Shown piece after piece: positions 3,739-9,226 of a DNA stretch of 64,000 nucleotides (positions are counted from its first letter, which is position 1; each line of letters starts with the position of its first letter). Source of the DNA: Nitrososphaeria archaeon (GTDB lineage Archaea; Thermoproteota; Nitrososphaeria; Geothermarchaeales; JDFR-13); NCBI GenBank assembly GCA_027078545.1, contig JALWXN010000004.1:704001-768000 (forward strand). Direction: 5' to 3'. A program made the position numbers and the translations under genes. The notes under the pieces were generated by a model that saw only the letters and a list, made by a program, of their open reading frames with translations, searched no databases and was not told where the DNA came from.

Positions 3739-6210
3739 ATGGTCGTAGAGGCCTATCGAAAGGTGGGTAGGGGGTTCACCTTCCCCGGCTATGAAGCGAG
3801 GTTCACCCCTAGGCCCGGCTACCTACTCACACATGCATCGATAGAGGTGTGGATCAAGCCTGTGGAGAAGACCCTTGAGGGCGTGGTGGAGTATAAGATC
3901 TCCTCGGGTGAGAGGGCTAGGAGGATCGAGCTCGACGCCTCGGAGATGGAGATCCTGGAGGTCCTGGTTGATGGGGAGCCGGTAGAGTTTAGATATACCG
4001 GTGAGAAGCTGGTAATACCCTTTACACCCCCTCTTACAAGGAGGATTAGGAGCCTCGTCGTCAGGTATCGGGTTGTGGATCCCAGGTATGGCCTCTACTT
4101 CATAGAGGACCCGCCTATGGTATATACCCAGGGGGAGACGATATGGACTAGCTACTGGCTCCCCACCTATAGGGAGCCTAACATGAGGATCTCCTTCGAC
4201 ATGACTATCCACGCACCAGCCGAGTGGAGGGCCTTCTCAAACGGCGTCCTAGTCTCGGCCGAGAGGGTTGGGGGCGAGTCTATATGGAGATACAGCTTCA
4301 GCTACCCAGTCCCGACCTACCTCATAGCCTTCGCGGCGGGCCGCTTCACCGTTGAGAGGGAGGATTATAGGGGTATCCAGCTCGAGTATATAGTGGCTGA
4401 GGGTGAGGAGGCCAAGATAGAGCCTACCTTCAGGATGACCCGGGACATGATGAGGTTCTTCGAGGAGTGGCTCGGGGTACAGTATCCCTACCCGGTCTAT
4501 AGACAGGTCATGGTTAGGGACTTCGTCGTGGGTGGTATGGAGAACGTATCGATAACTATCCTTAATGACGCCACACTCATGGATGAGCATTCCAAGAAGG
4601 ACTTCAGGGTCGAGGATCTCCTGAGCCATGAGCTTGCCCACCAGTGGTTCGGAGACCTAGTCACGTGTAGGGACTGGAGCCATATATGGATAAACGAGGG
4701 CTTCGCCACCTTCCTCAACCTACTGTATATCAGGCACTGGCTCGGGATGGATGAATACATATATAGCCTCTTAGGAGTCATGGATAGGTACCTCGAGGAG
4801 ACGAGGAGGTATACAAGGCCGACTGTATATAGGGTGTATAGATATCCCGAGGAGCTCTTCGACAGGCACGTCTATGAACGGGGAGCCCTGATCCTAAACA
4901 TGCTGATGAACCTACTGGGGGAGGAGGTCTTCAGGAAGGCTGTTAAGAAGTTCCTCAACCGTTACCGCTTCCAGAACGTGGATACTGAGGATCTCAGGAA
5001 GACTTTTGAGGAGGTCTCCGGCGAGGATCTCGACTGGTTCTTCGAGACATTCGTCTACAACGCGGGGCATATGGAGCTGGAGGTCTCTGTGGAGCCCCTG
5101 GAGGATCAGCAGGCTGTCAGGATAGACATATCACAGAGGCAGGGTGTGGATATGCCGGAGGTCTATAAAGTGCCTATCGAGGTGGAGGTTGTCGGGGATG
5201 GCTGGAGCATAAGGAGGACATACAGGCTTGAGAAGAGGGATGAGCGGATAATAATGCCTGTTAGGAAGGGCTTCAAATATGTACTGGTGGATCCGGACTT
5301 CAAGTTGATGGCTAGGATCAGGCCTAAGTATCCCCTCGACATGCTGGGTGAGATACTCCTCGGCTCCAAGAGCACTTATTGGAGGCTCCTAGCCGCGAGG
5401 GCACTAGGGGAGAAGAAGGGGAAGAGGGTGGTCGACCTACTCGTAGAGGCGATAAGGAGGAGCGGCTTCTATGGTGTAGCCAAGGAGGCGGCGGTATCAC
5501 TCGGCCTCGAAGGCTCGGACTATGCGAAGAAGATGCTTAGGGAGCTGCTTGGGGAGGATCTACACCCCAGGGTGAGGGCCGCCCTAGTAAGATCCCTAGG
5601 AGGCTATAGGGACGAGGGTGATGCCCAGCTATTCATTGACATCCTTAGGGATCCCGGTGAGCCCTACGGGGTCAGGGCGGAGGCTGCCCAGGCCCTCGGC
5701 AAGACAAGGTATAGAGGGGGTATAGATGTGCTTAGATCCATACTTAATGAGTGGAGCTATGCATATGTTGTCCAGAGATATGCACTCAGAGGCCTAGCGG
5801 AGTATGACGATGACGAGGCCTTCCAGGAGATACTTAGGAGATCGAGGCCCGGGAACCCCCTACCGATAAGGGTGGAGGCTATTACACAGCTGGGCAGGTA
5901 TCCGGAGAGGAAGGAGGTCTACAGGGCTCTTGACGAGTATGCCTCGGACAGGCATGAGCGGGTCAGGAGGGCCGTGGTAGCCGCGGCTAGGCAGCTGATG
6001 AATAGGCGGGCATTACCCATTATTGAGAAGATACTTAGGGACGAGGCCAACGGGTTCATAGCCAAGGCATGCCTCCTGGCAAGGAGAGAGGTTGAGGAGG
6101 CCCTGGAGAAGGGTGAGGAGTATAAGAGGCTTATAAAGAAGCTGGAGGAGATCGAGAGCCGCTGGAGAGACATATACAGTAGGATCGAGGTGCTCGACAT
6201 CCATGGATAG
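3739..6210 (+). CDS. M1 family aminopeptidase with C-terminal HEAT repeats
   Basis: GGMEN exopeptidase motif, HELAHQWFG...WINEG (HExxH-x18-E), HEAT-like helical repeats and coiled-coil tail. Confidence 0.93.
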   Translation: MVVEAYRKVGRGFTFPGYEARFTPRPGYLLTHASIEVWIKPVEKTLEGVVEYKISSGERARRIELDASEMEILEVLVDGEPVEFRYTGEKLVIPFTPPLTRRIRSLVVRYRVVDPRYGLYFIEDPPMVYTQGETIWTSYWLPTYREPNMRISFDMTIHAPAEWRAFSNGVLVSAERVGGESIWRYSFSYPVPTYLIAFAAGRFTVEREDYRGIQLEYIVAEGEEAKIEPTFRMTRDMMRFFEEWLGVQYPYPVYRQVMVRDFVVGGMENVSITILNDATLMDEHSKKDFRVEDLLSHELAHQWFGDLVTCRDWSHIWINEGFATFLNLLYIRHWLGMDEYIYSLLGVMDRYLEETRRYTRPTVYRVYRYPEELFDRHVYERGALILNMLMNLLGEEVFRKAVKKFLNRYRFQNVDTEDLRKTFEEVSGEDLDWFFETFVYNAGHMELEVSVEPLEDQQAVRIDISQRQGVDMPEVYKVPIEVEVVGDGWSIRRTYRLEKRDERIIMPVRKGFKYVLVDPDFKLMARIRPKYPLDMLGEILLGSKSTYWRLLAARALGEKKGKRVVDLLVEAIRRSGFYGVAKEAAVSLGLEGSDYAKKMLRELLGEDLHPRVRAALVRSLGGYRDEGDAQLFIDILRDPGEPYGVRAEAAQALGKTRYRGGIDVLRSILNEWSYAYVVQRYALRGLAEYDDDEAFQEILRRSRPGNPLPIRVEAITQLGRYPERKEVYRALDEYASDRHERVRRAVVAAARQLMNRRALPIIEKILRDEANGFIAKACLLARREVEEALEKGEEYKRLIKKLEEIESRWRDIYSRIEVLDIHG

Positions 6211-6230
6211 CATAGAGAAGCGCTATATCG

Positions 6231-6275
6231 CCGATTTCAATACTTAATTATAAGTAGGTCGTATATACGAATCGG
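6231..6275. promoter_or_regulatory. Nested palindromes upstream of the surface-fibre operon
   Basis: TACTTAATTATAAGTA (6241-6256, near-palindrome) and TCGTATATACGA (6259-6270, perfect), flanked by CCGATT/AATCGG. Confidence 0.4.
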
Positions 6276-6309
6276 TATATTGGCCTAATAACATAATTTA
6301 TATTTTTCA

Positions 6310-6870
6310 ATGAGGACGAGTAGAGCCATCATACTTTTGGCGCTGTTGACGCTCTTAGCACTGGTAGGTACTGCGGTCTTCGTCTACCTACCAGTGAACG
6401 TCACCATCAATTCCGTAGGCCCACCAGTGATATTCCAGGCCGGTTCCAACGCTGGTGGAACTGATCTGGGCGGCAACACAATTCAAGTGACACTTGGGCC
6501 AAACTCGTCTAGTGCAACGATAGTTCTCCACCCAACGTATCAGAAGACATATTACCACGATATACTCCAGGTCTCTAACCCATCTCCCCCGGCTGGTGAC
6601 AACTACTACATAGGTATAAAGGTAGTATCACCCCTCACTGGAGCCGCCTTCTCATCAGCCGTTGCTAGGGTCTACGACTCTGCGAACAACCTCTTATTCA
6701 CAGCGGACCTGAAGACAGCTGGTACATATGGCTGGGCCACGCTTCTCCCAGATGGCCAGACATTCAGGATAGATATAGAGATAGTTATTACTGAGGGTGT
6801 CCCACTACCCAGCGGGTCGGTGACGTTCGAGCTAGTCTACAGCCCGCAGAGCGTGACGCCGCCACCGTAG
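6310..6870 (+). CDS. Secreted beta-rich protein, candidate major subunit of a SipW-processed fibre (TasA/bundling-pilin-like)
   Basis: Signal peptide ending VGTA, beta-strand-rich, no TM anchor, N-glycosylation sequons, clustered with a signal peptidase. Confidence 0.6.
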   Translation: MRTSRAIILLALLTLLALVGTAVFVYLPVNVTINSVGPPVIFQAGSNAGGTDLGGNTIQVTLGPNSSSATIVLHPTYQKTYYHDILQVSNPSPPAGDNYYIGIKVVSPLTGAAFSSAVARVYDSANNLLFTADLKTAGTYGWATLLPDGQTFRIDIEIVITEGVPLPSGSVTFELVYSPQSVTPPP

Positions 6871-6875
6871 TAGCG

Positions 6876-8084
6876 ATGCTCTCCAGGATAGTGGCTATAC
6901 CCCTCATACCAATACTTTTTTTCATACCATATGTCCTGGGTGCAGAGTTTAGCTACTATCCTACATCCCTCACCCTTAATTCCGTCTCTCCCCCCATATC
7001 ACTGTATGATCCTGGGGTGTCGGGGGTAACGGTCTCCCTAGGGCCTAACTCGACTAGTGCCTCTATAACTGTTAAGGCTAGCGCACAGCCCTTCGATATA
7101 GTGGCTAATAGCGACTTTATAGGGCCTAGCCCCTGGCTATTCATCCCAGGCACGGACCTGATTAGTGCCACGGTTCTCCCGAGCTACTTAGGTAGGGTGG
7201 GTGTTGCTAATGTCTCTGGATCAGGTTCTCTCTTCACGGGATATACGGACTCGGCGTTCCTCTATCAGCAGATTACTTGGCCGACGACGCCTATCCTATT
7301 CGCCAATGTATATCTCGAGGCCTGTGTAGAGTATGCAGTGACCTCGGGCTTCTCAATACTTCTCCTCGACGCCACCGTATTCGTGGTTGATGCCAATACG
7401 TTGGCCGTGGTAGACTCGATAACCTTCATCCTAGACGTAGGATCATCATCCACCTGTACATGGAACACCTATACTGGTGGCCTGAACGTGGGTGCTTATA
7501 CCCCTGGTGGGACGTACTACTTCCTTATCAGGTATAGGGTGCAGAGCCTCTTTACACTCTTCGGTGGCTCGTACTATGCCAGGTTCTATACCGATCTGGC
7601 GAACATCACGGTTGCACCGGCTAACCCCACCTTCCTAGGTATATTCCTACTTGCCAATGCGTCTACAGGTATTTATAACGCCTCGCTGAGCCTCGTATCA
7701 GCCAGCTTCACCGGCACCGTGGATGCCAATATATGGCTGAGGAACAATACGGTCCAGGTCCAGTCCAGCTCGATCACTATATCGGCCTCCACGATAGTCA
7801 CCAGCCAGACATCAGAGCTCATCGTTACAACGGTTCCACCTGGATATTATAGTCTCGAGATGTGGCTGGACACCACGATCTCGCCTGGTGCCTCGGCCAC
7901 CCTAAACCTGGTCCTCAAGTATAGGATTCAGGACGGTGTTTATGTCGAGTACCCCATCCTGCTCAATATTGTTGACCCTCCCGATAGGGGTGGCCAGCCT
8001 AGTGAACCCCCTGATAAGATCTTCAAGATCTTATCTATTGATCCGCCCCCATATATTGAGTTCTTGAGGAGCTATGATCCGTAG
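6876..8084 (+). CDS. Secreted beta-rich protein, candidate minor or adhesin subunit of the same fibre
   Basis: Signal peptide; mature N-terminus FSYYPTSLTLNSVSPP...VSLGPNSTSASI matches the preceding gene; many N-x-S/T sequons. Confidence 0.6.
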   Translation: MLSRIVAIPLIPILFFIPYVLGAEFSYYPTSLTLNSVSPPISLYDPGVSGVTVSLGPNSTSASITVKASAQPFDIVANSDFIGPSPWLFIPGTDLISATVLPSYLGRVGVANVSGSGSLFTGYTDSAFLYQQITWPTTPILFANVYLEACVEYAVTSGFSILLLDATVFVVDANTLAVVDSITFILDVGSSSTCTWNTYTGGLNVGAYTPGGTYYFLIRYRVQSLFTLFGGSYYARFYTDLANITVAPANPTFLGIFLLANASTGIYNASLSLVSASFTGTVDANIWLRNNTVQVQSSSITISASTIVTSQTSELIVTTVPPGYYSLEMWLDTTISPGASATLNLVLKYRIQDGVYVEYPILLNIVDPPDRGGQPSEPPDKIFKILSIDPPPYIEFLRSYDP

Positions 8085-8487
8085 GCCGGGGCCCACGACA
8101 CTTATCGTACTAGTATTCGCCATACTGGTTCTCGGACGCTTCGTGGGTAGCCCGGTTGCAGCTGTGGTGATTGTTGGGCCCTCTATGGAGCCTACCCTGA
8201 ACGTGGGTGACCTGGTCATTCTCCGCTGGGCCGATCCGGAGGTTGGGGATATAGTCCTCTGGTGTAACACCCTGATGAACTGTGTTCTACACCGTGTTGT
8301 TGAGGTGGGCAAGGACTATATAGTTACGAGGGGAGACGCCAACGACATCAATGACCCTCCCGTCCTGAGGGAGCAGGTTAGATATGAGGCCCTACTATCG
8401 ATACCCAGGTATCTATGGATACCCGGCCTAGCCATACTGGTTATAGGTGCACATCTATATGAGAAGAGGAAGGAGGGGGGCGATTAA
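8074..8487 (+). CDS. Signal peptidase I, archaeal/SipW (Ser-His) type
   Basis: GPSMEPTLNVGDLVI, VLHRVV and TRGDAN..D motifs; N- and C-terminal TMs. Confidence 0.9.
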   Translation: MIRRPGPTTLIVLVFAILVLGRFVGSPVAAVVIVGPSMEPTLNVGDLVILRWADPEVGDIVLWCNTLMNCVLHRVVEVGKDYIVTRGDANDINDPPVLREQVRYEALLSIPRYLWIPGLAILVIGAHLYEKRKEGGD

Positions 8488-9226
8488 GGGGCTCGTAGCT
8501 GGCGGCCTAGGCCTATGGCTCTACAGCTTTTACGAGCCAGTCCTAAGGATAGAGTTAGTGAGGCATAGGATTGACCTTGACCTGGGGCTGGAGATCCTCT
8601 TCGTGACTGACACCCATCTCCACGGTGTCCCGGGTAGGGAGGATAGCGTCATAAAGCTTGTTGAGGATCTCTCTAGGGAGGTAGACCTCACGATACTGGG
8701 GGGAGACATGTATGACGAGTTCTCGGAGAGCCTGGAGAGCTTCTCATCCCTCCTAGATGCGATAAGTGGCGAGGCTATCATGGTTCTCGGTAACCATGAA
8801 CACTGGGCTGCCGATAGGTATCCCCTCGAAGAGACTATAGAGATGGCTGAGTCGAGAGGCGTGACTGTGCTTAGGAACGGGGTGGTGGAGTATAAAGGTC
8901 TCCATATCGGAGGGGTAGACTGGTATGGTGATAACCCGCAGCTGGCGAGGAGGTACTACAGGGACGTTGGGAGTGTAGATATCCTGGTATCCCACACACC
9001 CGACATACTTGGTGATGCGGAGGTCGATGCACGCCTCGTATTGGCTGGCCATACGCATGGTGGCCAGATACTGGGTCCACTTGGGCTGATAACGAATAGT
9101 AGGCATGGCTATGTAAGCGGCTTCTATAGGAGGGGTGAGGCCCTGATGTATGTCTCTAGGGGGGCTGGGGAGATTATTCCCTTCCGCCTATTGACGCCCC
9201 GGGAGGTCACATTACTAAGCGTCTAG
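8447..9226 (+). CDS. Metallophosphoesterase (YkuE-like)
   Basis: DTH, GGD..D, GNHE, SHTPD, GHTHGGQ and VSRG motifs. Confidence 0.9.
   Translation: MHIYMRRGRRGAIKGLVAGGLGLWLYSFYEPVLRIELVRHRIDLDLGLEILFVTDTHLHGVPGREDSVIKLVEDLSREVDLTILGGDMYDEFSESLESFSSLLDAISGEAIMVLGNHEHWAADRYPLEETIEMAESRGVTVLRNGVVEYKGLHIGGVDWYGDNPQLARRYYRDVGSVDILVSHTPDILGDAEVDARLVLAGHTHGGQILGPLGLITNSRHGYVSGFYRRGEALMYVSRGAGEIIPFRLLTPREVTLLSV

What the first reader, a model, noticed from the sequence alone, without database searches (positions are those of the whole stretch)
6310..8487. Candidate archaeal donor-strand fibre system: two subunits with a shared N-terminal strand plus a dedicated SipW-type peptidase
Seen: after their signal peptides the 186-aa and 402-aa proteins begin with matching segments (VFVYLPVNVTINSVGPP...VTLGPNSSSATI versus EFSYYPTSLTLNSVSPP...VSLGPNSTSASI). 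Both are beta-rich with no membrane anchor, and a Ser/His signal peptidase overlaps the second gene. Known: Bacillus tapA-sipW-tasA and the TasA-like archaeal bundling pili of Pyrobaculum use SipW-type processing and donor-strand polymerisation. Inference: the small protein is the major fibre subunit and the large one a minor or tip subunit that co-polymerises through the same strand, giving a biofilm or adhesion fibre whose subunits would be annotated only as hypothetical.
Basis: partly seen in the sequence, partly recalled or inferred. Interest (0 to 1): 0.82.

Follow-up and report, generated by a model that had tools for sequence, protein, structure and literature searches.

The report
Thread-like archaeal pilus operon, minimal form
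An uncultured heat-vent archaeon carries a compact three-gene set for a thin surface fibre related to the Sulfolobus "thread": a main subunit, a larger subunit with a sugar-binding-type domain inserted in it, and the set's own signal peptidase. It belongs to a recently recognised kind of system rather than being a new kind.

Summary
ORFs 6310-6870 (186 aa), 6876-8084 (402 aa) and 8074-8487 (137 aa) exist. The two secreted proteins share their mature N-termini: 38% identity over 55 aa (E 3e-7) and profile-profile E 1e-11.

- **Small protein:** a remote full-length homologue of the Sulfolobus acidocaldarius thread subunit Saci_0406 (profile E 4e-6; VIA Z 15.4, rmsd 3.2 Å over 154 residues). The next best fold match is the Pyrobaculum bundling pilin AbpA (Z 12.6).
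- **Large protein:** the same pilin fold, interrupted at residues about 72-248 by a CBM-like jelly roll (Z about 13).
- **Peptidase:** a Ser37/His73 archaeal signal peptidase I. It falls in a clade (99/99 support) found only beside such pilin genes, in 22 of 25 loci across Thermoproteota. It is separate from the genome's housekeeping paralogue.

The donor-strand fibre reading is therefore supported, but polymerisation itself could not be modelled. Relatives usually carry a four-gene kit with a long peptidase and a membrane partner; this genus has a three-gene form. This scan has already reported the same operon family in other genomes (e1-3150369, e1-3150354, e1-4946784). Verdict: a new variant of a known kind, of moderate interest.

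The parts
6211..6309 (+). AT-rich intergenic region upstream of the operon, with TATA-like elements (TATATT at 6277-6282, TATATA at 6262-6267). Putative archaeal promoter.
   Evidence: Read directly from the sequence. GC falls to about 0.50 here against 0.53-0.56 in the flanks. No promoter test was possible; the sigma-70 scan does not apply to archaea.
6310..6870 (+). Small (major) subunit, 186 aa: a thread-like pilin of the TasA superfamily.
   Evidence: ORF. AF2 pLDDT 86.5. Foldseek 7pnb E 4.7e-8 and 7ueg E 3.5e-6. VIA 7pnb Z 15.4 and 7ueg Z 12.6. Family profile hits the Saci_0406 sequence at E 4.1e-6 over its full length.
6310..6375 (+). Sec-type signal peptide of the small subunit (aa 1-22). 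Predicted cleavage is G-T-A|V, or one residue earlier at V-G-T|A.
   Evidence: Predicted helix at aa 2-19 and a hydrophobic segment. The site aligns with the thread's A23|D24 cleavage site. The -3/-1 rule is applied as inference; SignalP was not available.
6376..6438 (+). Predicted donor strand of the small subunit (aa 23-43, VFVYLP...PPVIFQ).
   Evidence: Invariant or near-invariant V23 F24 V25 Y26 P28 P38 in the family. Not folded onto its own domain in the AF2 monomer (coil, pLDDT 62-69). Aligns with the N-terminal tail that is the donor strand in the thread cryo-EM structure (PMC9715654).
6876..8084 (+). Large (minor, tip or initiator) subunit, 402 aa.
   Evidence: ORF. AF2 pLDDT 87.4. N-terminal 74 columns are homologous to the small-subunit family. 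The pilin fold is split by an inserted domain.
6876..7007 (+). Signal peptide (aa 1-23; predicted cleavage L-G-A|E, or V-L-G|A) plus the shared donor-strand module (EFSYYP...PPISL) of the large subunit.
   Evidence: Residues 18-35 have pLDDT below 50 and are not packed on the domain.
7089..7619 (+). CBM-like beta-jelly-roll domain (aa ~72-248) inserted in the pilin domain. Candidate lectin or adhesin head.
   Evidence: VIA search of 48,161 chains: TmCBM61 2xom Z 13.0 (rmsd 2.9, 138 aligned), hyaluronan-binding module 4d0q Z 12.9, CBM16 2zew Z 12.5, CBM4 1gui Z 12.2. All map to model residues ~72-248.
7623..7973 (+). C-terminal half of the large subunit's pilin domain (aa ~250-366).
   Evidence: The AbpA 7ueg (Z 11.3, model range 14-352) and thread 7pnb (Z 10.4, range 17-356) alignments bridge the N-terminal strands and this part. 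This half is the conserved portion of large-subunit homologues of 384-725 aa.
8074..8487 (+). Cassette-dedicated archaeal signal peptidase I, 137 aa, short form. Ser37 at 8182-8184, His73 at 8290-8292; N- and C-terminal membrane segments.
   Evidence: TIGR02228 63.1 bits, PF10502 E 1.2e-6. Catalytic boxes aligned. Clade of pilin-linked peptidases at 99/99 support, apart from the housekeeping paralogues. The second, housekeeping gene lies at G000:C1:38901-39341.
8447..9226 (+). YaeI-like metallophosphoesterase. Same strand, overlaps the peptidase gene by 41 nt, probably co-transcribed. Not part of the conserved cassette.
   Evidence: PF00149 E 5.8e-13. Linked to the cassette only in the close relatives L009 and L010.

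Best explanation
This is an operon for a non-type-IV, donor-strand-complemented surface filament of the thread/TasA superfamily, in a reduced three-gene form.

Proposed mechanism, with the status of each step:
1. Both precursors are exported by Sec. (Inferred from their signal peptides.)
2. The operon's own Ser37/His73 signal peptidase I removes the signal peptides. This exposes a conserved N-terminal strand: (A)VFVYLP in the 186-aa protein and (A)EFSYYP in the 402-aa protein. (Substrate pairing is inferred from conserved linkage.)
3. The 186-aa protein is the major subunit. Its beta-sandwich resembles the Sulfolobus thread subunit, and its free N-terminal tail inserts into neighbouring subunits to give a head-to-tail fibre. 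(Homology is shown; polymerisation is inferred.)
4. The 402-aa protein has the same tail and the same pilin fold, with a CBM-like jelly roll inserted after the first strands. It enters the fibre through the shared strand, most likely as a low-copy initiator or tip subunit. In that position it would display a glycan-binding head, analogous to TapA for TasA or the proposed Saci_0405 cap for threads. (Fold is shown; role is inferred.)
5. The likely function is adhesion, cell-cell contact or biofilm formation. (Inferred from the known roles of the relatives.)
For: Small subunit is thread-like:
- The profile of 20 family members hits the Saci_0406 sequence (7pnb) over its full length at E 4.1e-6.
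- Foldseek: 7pnb E 4.7e-8, TM 0.64; 7ueg E 3.5e-6, TM 0.61.
- VIA: 7pnb Z 15.4, rmsd 3.2 Å, with 154 of the 165 residues of model range 22-186 aligned. AbpA scores Z 12.6, cannulae/Hyper2 8.0-8.6, Tafi 7.3, type-1 pilins about 6-6.7. Six of the top seven hits are archaeal donor-strand filaments.
- In both AF2 monomers the N-terminal segment is not packed on its own domain.
- The small-subunit alignment to the thread starts at the mature N-terminus. Most of the tail therefore superposes on the thread's extended donor tail.

Shared strand:
- Searches show the similarity between the two proteins.
- Across 13 genomes, the large subunit's strand is more similar to its own partner's strand than to those of other genomes (0.40 against 0.32 identity; 0 of 10,000 permutations reach this).

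Large subunit: a pilin fold bridging residues 14-356 with a CBM-like insert at 72-248. The insert size varies (384-725 aa proteins) while the two pilin halves are conserved.

Peptidase:
- The genome has two signal peptidase I genes.
- This one belongs to a clade, at 99/99 support, made up only of pilin-linked peptidases.
- 22 of 25 strong pilin loci from different families of the phylum carry such a peptidase within a few kb.

Operon structure: a 5-nt gap, then 11-nt and 41-nt overlaps, with no terminator-like site.

Literature on the mechanism in relatives: PMC9715654 (thread DSC, Saci_0405 cap), PMC10151520 (TapA donates its N-terminus to TasA; tapA/sipW stop-start overlap), 10.64898/2026.01.04.697558 (dedicated SPase I, minor and tip subunits in archaeal AbpX loci).
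Against: - No oligomer could be modelled, so neither strand insertion nor an acceptor groove was seen directly.
- The thread hallmarks named in PMC9715654 (N-terminal Asp, YYY) are not present as such.
- Sulfolobales-type thread loci sampled here have no linked peptidase, so the assembly route may differ from that of threads.
- A CBM-like fold does not show sugar binding.
- The organism is an uncultured MAG, and no expression or filament data exist.
- This genus lacks the long peptidase extension and the membrane partner that most relatives keep. If those are needed for assembly or anchoring, the locus might be impaired.
Confidence: 0.75

Rival explanations
1. Same fibre, but the large protein is a regular minor subunit with its own acceptor groove. 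It would be incorporated at intervals along the shaft and decorate it with lectin heads, rather than acting as a terminal initiator, tip or cap.
For: The large protein appears to hold a whole pilin fold (7ueg and 7pnb align across residues 14-356) and the same donor strand. Nothing seen here shows a blocked groove. Some genomes carry several pilin paralogues in the cassette (L060, L069).
Against: The best-studied analogues (TapA in PMC10151520; Saci_0405 in PMC9715654) are terminal, because they cannot accept a strand. The pilin half of the large protein has more strands than the small subunit (9 against 7 after the split), and these could self-fill the groove. Its gene is second in the operon.
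Confidence: 0.25
2. The two proteins do not polymerise. They are secreted or S-layer-associated glycoproteins (a lectin and a small partner). Their shared N-terminal motif is a recognition or sorting signal for the dedicated peptidase, not a donor strand.
For: The conserved motif lies directly at the predicted cleavage site, where peptidase specificity could also conserve it. Polymerisation is untested. The inserted domain looks like a CBM.
Against: The conserved module runs about 50 residues into the mature protein, far beyond a peptidase subsite. The small protein is homologous end to end with a subunit whose equivalent N-terminal segment is the donor strand in a cryo-EM structure (PMC9715654). 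All the best fold matches are filament subunits.
Confidence: 0.1
3. The peptidase is simply a second general signal peptidase that lies next to these genes by chance, and the housekeeping enzyme processes the two proteins.
For: Pyrobaculum ABP and Sulfolobus threads are thought to be processed by the generic enzyme (PMC9245690, PMC9715654). The catalytic boxes here are ordinary.
Against: Linkage is conserved in 22 of 25 loci across many families. The pilin-linked peptidases form a separate clade at 99/99 support. The peptidase start overlaps the stop of the large-subunit gene. Fusions of the membrane partner with the large subunit keep an internal cleavage module.
Confidence: 0.05

Closest known systems
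Archaeal thread of Sulfolobus acidocaldarius (Saci_0406 major subunit, Saci_0405 putative cap; PDB 7PNB, 8RZL; PMC9715654)
   Same: - Best sequence and fold match of the small subunit (profile E 4.1e-6 over the full length; Z 15.4).
- Both have a Sec signal peptide followed by a conserved aromatic N-terminal strand and a PP motif, and both end in a ...SP...PP C-terminus.
- A second, co-transcribed subunit shares the donor tail.
- Both carry N-glycosylation sequons.
- The thread's isopeptide residue Asn57 aligns with the near-invariant Asn56 here, though this part of the alignment is low-confidence.
   Different: - The mature N-terminus is (A)VFVYLP, not the DVIYYY motif.
- The second subunit is 402 aa, has a signal peptide and carries an inserted CBM-like domain. 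Saci_0405 is described as a plain pilin-like fold without a predicted Sec signal.
- A dedicated signal peptidase is present here, whereas the five thread-type loci sampled had none within 7 kb.
- Identity is only about 19%.
[quoted passage not shown]
   Same: - Second-best fold match (Z 12.6; Foldseek E 3.5e-6).
- The same gene order and sizes: a pilin of about 200 aa followed by a secreted protein of about 400 aa that is proposed to start the filament by donating a strand and to act as an adhesin.
   Different: - No sequence-level hit of the family profile to 7ueg at E <= 10.
- AbpB is described as having a TapA-like beta-sandwich, whereas the large subunit here has a pilin fold with a CBM-like insert.
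- The ABP locus has no dedicated peptidase.
Bacillus subtilis tapA-sipW-tasA, and archaeal AbpX and Tafi loci of the TasA superfamily (PMC10151520; 10.64898/2026.01.04.697558; PMC12337348)
   Same: - The same logic: a major subunit, an accessory protein sharing the N-terminal donor strand, and a dedicated Ser/His signal peptidase in one operon.
- The accessory gene and the peptidase gene overlap stop to start, as tapA and sipW do.
- Archaeal AbpX loci are described with SPase I, minor and tip subunits, and a peptidase accessory protein.
   Different: - No match to Pfam PF12389 (TasA/camelysin) in the protein or anywhere in the genome.
- The peptidase is not a SipW orthologue (22.9 bits against a cut-off of 190).
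- The 10-TM AbpX-type peptidase and the DUF5305 accessory protein were not detected here.
- Export is by Sec, not Tat as for Tafi.
Chaperone-usher pili with two-domain adhesins (FimH, PapG, CfaE)
   Same: - Donor-strand principle and Ig-like pilin fold (Z about 6-6.7).
- A lectin-type domain is combined with a pilin domain in the minor subunit.
   Different: - No chaperone or usher is present.
- The lectin-like domain is inserted inside the pilin domain, and the protein keeps its donor strand. In FimH the lectin domain is N-terminal and the pilin domain lacks a donor strand.
- The resemblance is analogous or very distant.

Membership tests
Thread (Saci_0406) family within the TasA superfamily | Detectable sequence homology to Saci_0406 over the whole subunit | tested here: met
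   Profile of alignment A3 against PDB sequences: 7pnb_A at E 4.1e-6, profile positions 2-185 against chain 2-200. 8rzl at E 0.0019.
Thread (Saci_0406) family within the TasA superfamily | Same subunit fold, including the extended N-terminal tail | tested here: met
   VIA Z 15.4, rmsd 3.2 Å, 154 aligned, model 22-186 against chain 24-202. Foldseek E 4.7e-8.
Thread (Saci_0406) family within the TasA superfamily | Conserved N-terminal Asp after the SPI site and a YYY motif (PMC9715654) | tested here: not met
   The family consensus after the cleavage site is (S/A)VFVY(Y/L)P, and the window has (A)VFVYLP. There is no Asp and only one or two Tyr. This makes it a sister family rather than a thread orthologue.
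Thread (Saci_0406) family within the TasA superfamily | Inter-subunit isopeptide bond (Asn57 to the N-terminal amine of subunit n+2) | tested here: inconclusive
   Asn56 (near-invariant, 18 of 20 sequences, not in a sequon) aligns with thread Asn57, but in a stretch of low posterior probability next to an insertion. A bond cannot be shown by sequence.
Thread (Saci_0406) family within the TasA superfamily | Polymerisation by donor strand complementation | not testable with these tools
The tail is unpacked in both monomers.
TasA/camelysin (Pfam PF12389, Peptidase_M73) | Match to the family model | tested here: not met
   No PF12389 hit at E <= 1 for either protein. No hit in the whole genome at E <= 1.
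Archaeal bundling pilin AbpA | Sequence or fold relationship to AbpA (7UEG) | tested here: inconclusive
   The fold is similar (Z 12.6), but the family profile does not reach 7ueg at E <= 10. It is related at the superfamily level only.
Archaeal signal peptidase I (TIGR02228; MEROPS S26, Ser/His ER type) | Score above the curated cut-off, with the Ser, His and Asp boxes present | tested here: met
   63.1 bits against a cut-off of 51.85. Ser37 in GPSMEPT, His73 in LHRV, and Asp88/Asp94 in TRGDANDIND align with the housekeeping paralogues.
SipW (NF046067, Bacillus equivalog) | Score above the equivalog cut-off | tested here: not met
   22.9 bits against a cut-off of 190. It works like SipW (a dedicated paralogue) but is not an orthologue.
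Dedicated (cassette-linked) signal peptidase | A paralogue distinct from the housekeeping enzyme and co-inherited with the pilin genes | tested here: met
   The genome has two genes. The cassette clade has 99/99 support and includes the window's enzyme. The peptidase is linked in 22 of 25 strong loci.
Type IV pilins / archaellins | Class III signal peptide (short charged leader, cleavage before the hydrophobic helix) and a prepilin peptidase | tested here: not met
   The hydrophobic segment precedes the predicted cleavage site. The mature proteins are all-beta. The linked enzyme is a type I signal peptidase.
Carbohydrate-binding module (beta-sandwich CBM families such as 4/16/22/61) for the insert of the large subunit | Fold match, and membership of a CBM sequence family or conserved ligand residues | tested here: inconclusive
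   The fold matches at Z 12-13 over about 140 residues, but there is no Pfam or NCBIfam hit and the ligand residues were not examined.

The most novel reading that the evidence does not exclude
The window's genus carries a naturally minimised, self-sufficient donor-strand pilus system: one pilin, one lectin-bearing initiator or tip pilin, and a bare 137-aa signal peptidase. It has no membrane partner, chaperone or usher. If so, thread-type fibres need only N-terminal unmasking to assemble, and the fibre is held to the cell or to targets through the inserted glycan-binding domain. By contrast, the long peptidase extension and the 'g4' membrane protein of relatives would be candidates for the still unknown thread assembly and anchoring machinery.
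Probability: 0.3. Interest if true: 0.6.

Novelty: new variant of a known kind. Interest (0 to 1): 0.45.

Why it matters
Archaeal donor-strand filaments (threads, bundling pili, cannulae, Tafi, AbpX) have only been recognised since 2022, and how threads are assembled and anchored is still stated to be unknown (PMC9715654).

This locus belongs to a thread-related family found in about a tenth of sampled Thermoproteota genomes (45 of 401). In that family the pilin is tied to its own signal peptidase and, in most lineages, to a membrane protein. Those are concrete candidates for the missing machinery.

The three-gene form in this genus is a natural experiment on which parts are dispensable. The second subunit shows a new way to build a pilus adhesin: a lectin-like domain inserted inside a pilin domain, so that the donor strand stays at the N-terminus.

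In practice, it gives an annotation to proteins now labelled hypothetical. It also offers a small, thermostable, possibly self-assembling fibre system for structural and materials work.

Tried and rejected
Genomic context came from the search for related loci, the genome search and the fetch from genomes instead.
- **Single-sequence PDB searches** with either protein gave only chance hits.
- **Pfam and NCBIfam** gave nothing credible for the two secreted proteins. They gave nothing for the C-terminal extension of the long peptidases or for the fourth gene of relatives either (no DUF5305).
- **ESM Atlas searches** of the long peptidase's C-terminal part and of the fourth gene gave no usable lead.
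- **Whole-chain Foldseek of the large subunit** gave only low-TM multi-domain hits. The domain picture came from the VIA wide search.
- **Profile-profile comparison** could not detect the C-terminal pilin half of the large subunit by sequence. Only the structural alignment does.
- **Secondary truncation of the short peptidase:** the best tree nests it among the long forms. However, an AU test does not reject the long forms being one clade (p 0.24), so this is unresolved.
- **tblastn of the own genome** found no copy of the peptidase extension or the fourth gene. The genome is about 92% complete.
- **The sigma-70/terminator scan** is uninformative for an archaeon.
- **Readings rejected:** type IV pilin, chaperone-usher system, TasA orthologue, SipW orthologue (see membership tests).
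- **Model coordinates** are not exposed to scripts, so the groove geometry could not be inspected.
Full report
**1. What is in the sequence**

The ORF listing finds four co-oriented, tightly packed genes after a 99-nt AT-rich spacer:
- 6310-6870, 186 aa.
- 6876-8084, 402 aa, after a 5-nt gap.
- 8074-8487, 137 aa, with an 11-nt overlap.
- 8447-9226, 259 aa, with a 41-nt overlap.

No terminator-like site lies inside this stretch. The window comes from a 1.24-Mb genome, about 92% complete. Its nearest named relatives are deep-sea vent MAGs labelled Candidatus Geothermarchaeota (taxonomy).

**2.

The two secreted proteins align at 36% identity over 91 residues (E 1e-8). After removing the signal peptides they still align at 38% over 55 residues (E 2.8e-7). 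The local score lies 14 SD above shuffles. Profiles of the two families match only in this N-terminal module, at probability 97.4% and E 1.3e-11.

Residue numbering, taken from the translations:
- Small subunit: signal peptide aa 1-22, then V23-F24-V25-Y26-L27-P28.
- Large subunit: signal peptide aa 1-23, then E24-F25-S26-Y27-Y28-P29.

The cleavage register is uncertain by one residue: G-T-A|V and L-G-A|E, or V-G-T|A and V-L-G|A. In most family members a canonical A-x-A|S site coincides with the thread's A23|D24 site. This rests on the -3/-1 rule, not on a predictor.

**3. The small protein is a thread-like pilin**

- **Family size:** the word-indexed search gives 12 close clusters. The exhaustive profile search of 1.84 billion representatives gives 161 clusters at E <= 1e-3 and 109 at E <= 1e-10, nearly all 170-210 aa.
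- **Names:** where a name exists it is 'hypothetical protein'.
- **Conserved motifs:** the N-terminal strand, G-x-N-A, D-L-x-G-N-T-I, H-P-T-Y-Q-x-T-Y-Y, and a C-terminal Y-S-P...P-P.
- **AF2 model:** with the family alignment, the model has pLDDT 86.5. It shows a signal helix, an unpacked segment at 20-40, then a beta-sandwich.
- **Foldseek:** Saci_0406 thread (7pnb, E 4.7e-8) and AbpA (7ueg, E 3.5e-6) rank first, followed by cannula-type tubes and type-1 pilins.
- **VIA re-alignment:** 7pnb Z 15.4 (rmsd 3.2 Å, 154 aligned, model 22-186 against chain 24-202), 7ueg Z 12.6, cannulae 8.0-8.6, Tafi 7.3, FimG about 6.7.
- **Sequence link:** the family profile finds the Saci_0406 sequence end to end at E 4.1e-6. 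The relationship is therefore homology, not only a shared fold.

Pfam's TasA model does not match the protein or anything else in the genome. The thread hallmarks (N-terminal Asp, YYY) are replaced by (S/A)VFVY(Y/L)P. I therefore read this as a sister family of threads inside the TasA superfamily, as defined in 10.1101/2024.12.30.630787 and 10.64898/2026.01.04.697558. Thread Asn57, which forms the isopeptide bond, aligns with the near-invariant Asn56 here. That part of the alignment has low posterior probability, so this is only a lead.

**4. The large protein is a pilin with an inserted lectin-like domain**

AF2 on 13 homologues gives pLDDT 87.4, with residues 18-35 disordered. Whole-chain Foldseek is dominated by multi-domain glycosidases and by pilin-adhesin fusions. 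The exhaustive VIA search resolves the domains:
- Residues ~72-248 match beta-sandwich carbohydrate-binding modules: CBM61 Z 13.0, hyaluronan-binding module 12.9, CBM16 12.5, CBM4 12.2-12.3.
- AbpA (Z 11.3, range 14-352) and the thread subunit (Z 10.4, range 17-356) align across the N-terminal strands plus the C-terminal ~110 residues.

The pilin domain is therefore split by the insert. Homologues range from 384 to 725 aa and keep both pilin halves while the middle varies, as expected for an adhesin head. The large protein has six N-x-S/T sequons and the small protein has two.

**5. The peptidase is a dedicated paralogue**

It passes the archaeal signal peptidase I model at 63.1 bits against a cut-off of 51.85. 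It has the Ser37, His73 and Asp boxes between an N-terminal and a C-terminal membrane segment.

The genome has one other signal peptidase I, scoring 108 bits. In a tree of 39 catalytic domains, all pilin-linked enzymes, including this one, form one group. The housekeeping enzymes (and a third, N-terminally extended type) form the other, with 99/99 support.

Of 25 strong pilin loci taken from different genera of the phylum, 22 have such a peptidase within a few kb. Five Sulfolobales-type thread loci have none. That agrees with the literature on threads and ABP.

**6. Distribution and cassette forms**

The pilin profile matches 45 of 401 sampled genomes of the phylum, in 27 of 162 genera. Named MAG hits include Desulfurococcales, Acidilobaceae, Methanomethylicia and Nitrososphaeria.

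The common form has four genes:
- the pilin;
- the large subunit;
- a long peptidase of 340-398 aa, with an extra membrane segment and a C-terminal part of about 200 aa with no family match;
- 'g4', a protein of 170-215 aa with 3-4 hydrophobic segments.

In several genomes g4 is fused to the large subunit and keeps an internal signal-anchor plus donor-strand module.

The window's genus has only a 137-141-aa peptidase and no g4 anywhere in the assembly. The best tree nests the short form among the long ones, but the AU test leaves the direction of change open (p 0.24).

A second protein carrying the shared strand module is present in at least 17 of the 25 loci. Across 13 genomes, the strand of the large subunit resembles its own partner's strand more than the strands of other genomes. 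Mean identity is 0.40 against 0.32, and 0 of 10,000 permutations reach this. This fits co-evolution for one groove, or gene conversion. The loci are related to one another, so the p-value is only indicative.

**7. Mechanism**

Shown:
- Homology of the small subunit to a solved donor-strand filament subunit.
- A shared, conserved, unpacked N-terminal module in both proteins.
- A pilin fold with a CBM-like insert in the large protein.
- A catalytically complete peptidase paralogue that is co-inherited with the pilin genes.

Inferred:
- Sec export.
- Cleavage by the cassette enzyme.
- Head-to-tail polymerisation through the N-terminal strand.
- The large subunit as a low-copy initiator or tip that presents a glycan-binding head. 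This is by analogy with TapA (PMC10151520), AbpB (PMC9245690) and Saci_0405 (PMC9715654).
- A role in adhesion or biofilm formation.

**8. Novelty**

The kind of system is known: TasA-superfamily filaments, with dedicated SPase I, minor and tip subunits described for archaeal AbpX loci. I did not find the following in the papers read:
- a thread-related pilin family tied to its own peptidase clade;
- a minor pilin built by inserting a lectin-like domain into the pilin fold;
- the reduced three-gene form.

Earlier reports of this scan describe the four-gene version in other genomes. My independent results agree with them. The same stretch of this genome was also flagged by other first readers.

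Noticed in passing
L012:9724-11323, L013:9740-11435, L016:9701-11357, L017:4501-6139 and most of L048-L080: In most relatives the cassette peptidase is 340-398 aa: the S26 domain, an extra membrane segment, and a C-terminal part of about 200 aa with no Pfam hit. It is followed by a fourth gene ('g4', 170-215 aa, 3-4 hydrophobic segments, no family match). Both are missing from the window's genome.
   Followed up: partly
L061:3828-5888, L065:3741-5837, L068:8628-10892, L078:8727-10904, L079:3818-5881, L080:4848-5870: Natural fusions of g4 with the large subunit (340-754 aa). They keep an internal signal-anchor plus donor-strand module at about residues 222-282, as if the cassette peptidase releases the large subunit from its membrane partner.
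   Followed up: partly
L086 (G263:C1:856066-856491), L087 (G281:C1:1195909-1196271), L088 (G227:C1:453722-454072): A third type of signal peptidase I (396-421 aa) with the catalytic domain at the C-terminus after an extension of about 240 aa. It groups near the housekeeping enzymes and perhaps serves another filament locus.
   Followed up: no
window 8263-8283 (Cys64, Cys70 of the peptidase): Cassette-clade peptidases share two cysteines (W-C ... C just before the His box) that the housekeeping paralogues lack. This may be a disulfide or a metal site.
   Followed up: no
window 8447-9226: A YaeI-like metallophosphoesterase gene overlaps the peptidase gene by 41 nt on the same strand. The linkage is seen only in the close relatives L009 and L010, so it is probably a passenger in the transcript.
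   Followed up: partly
L074:6644-7357, L075:6641-7357, L076:6736-7458: A subgroup of pilins of 237-240 aa has an insertion of about 80 residues after the donor strand. They are still followed by a long peptidase and g4.
   Followed up: no
L069:6953-9644 and L060:5977-8622; G096:C4:40996-41571: Some genomes have two pilin paralogues in the cassette (small-small-large, or small-large-small). One extra pilin copy in G096 contains an in-frame TAG.
   Followed up: no
window 3739-6210: An 823-aa M1 aminopeptidase with four C-terminal HEAT repeats lies directly upstream. It is syntenic in L009, L010 and L011 only.
   Followed up: no
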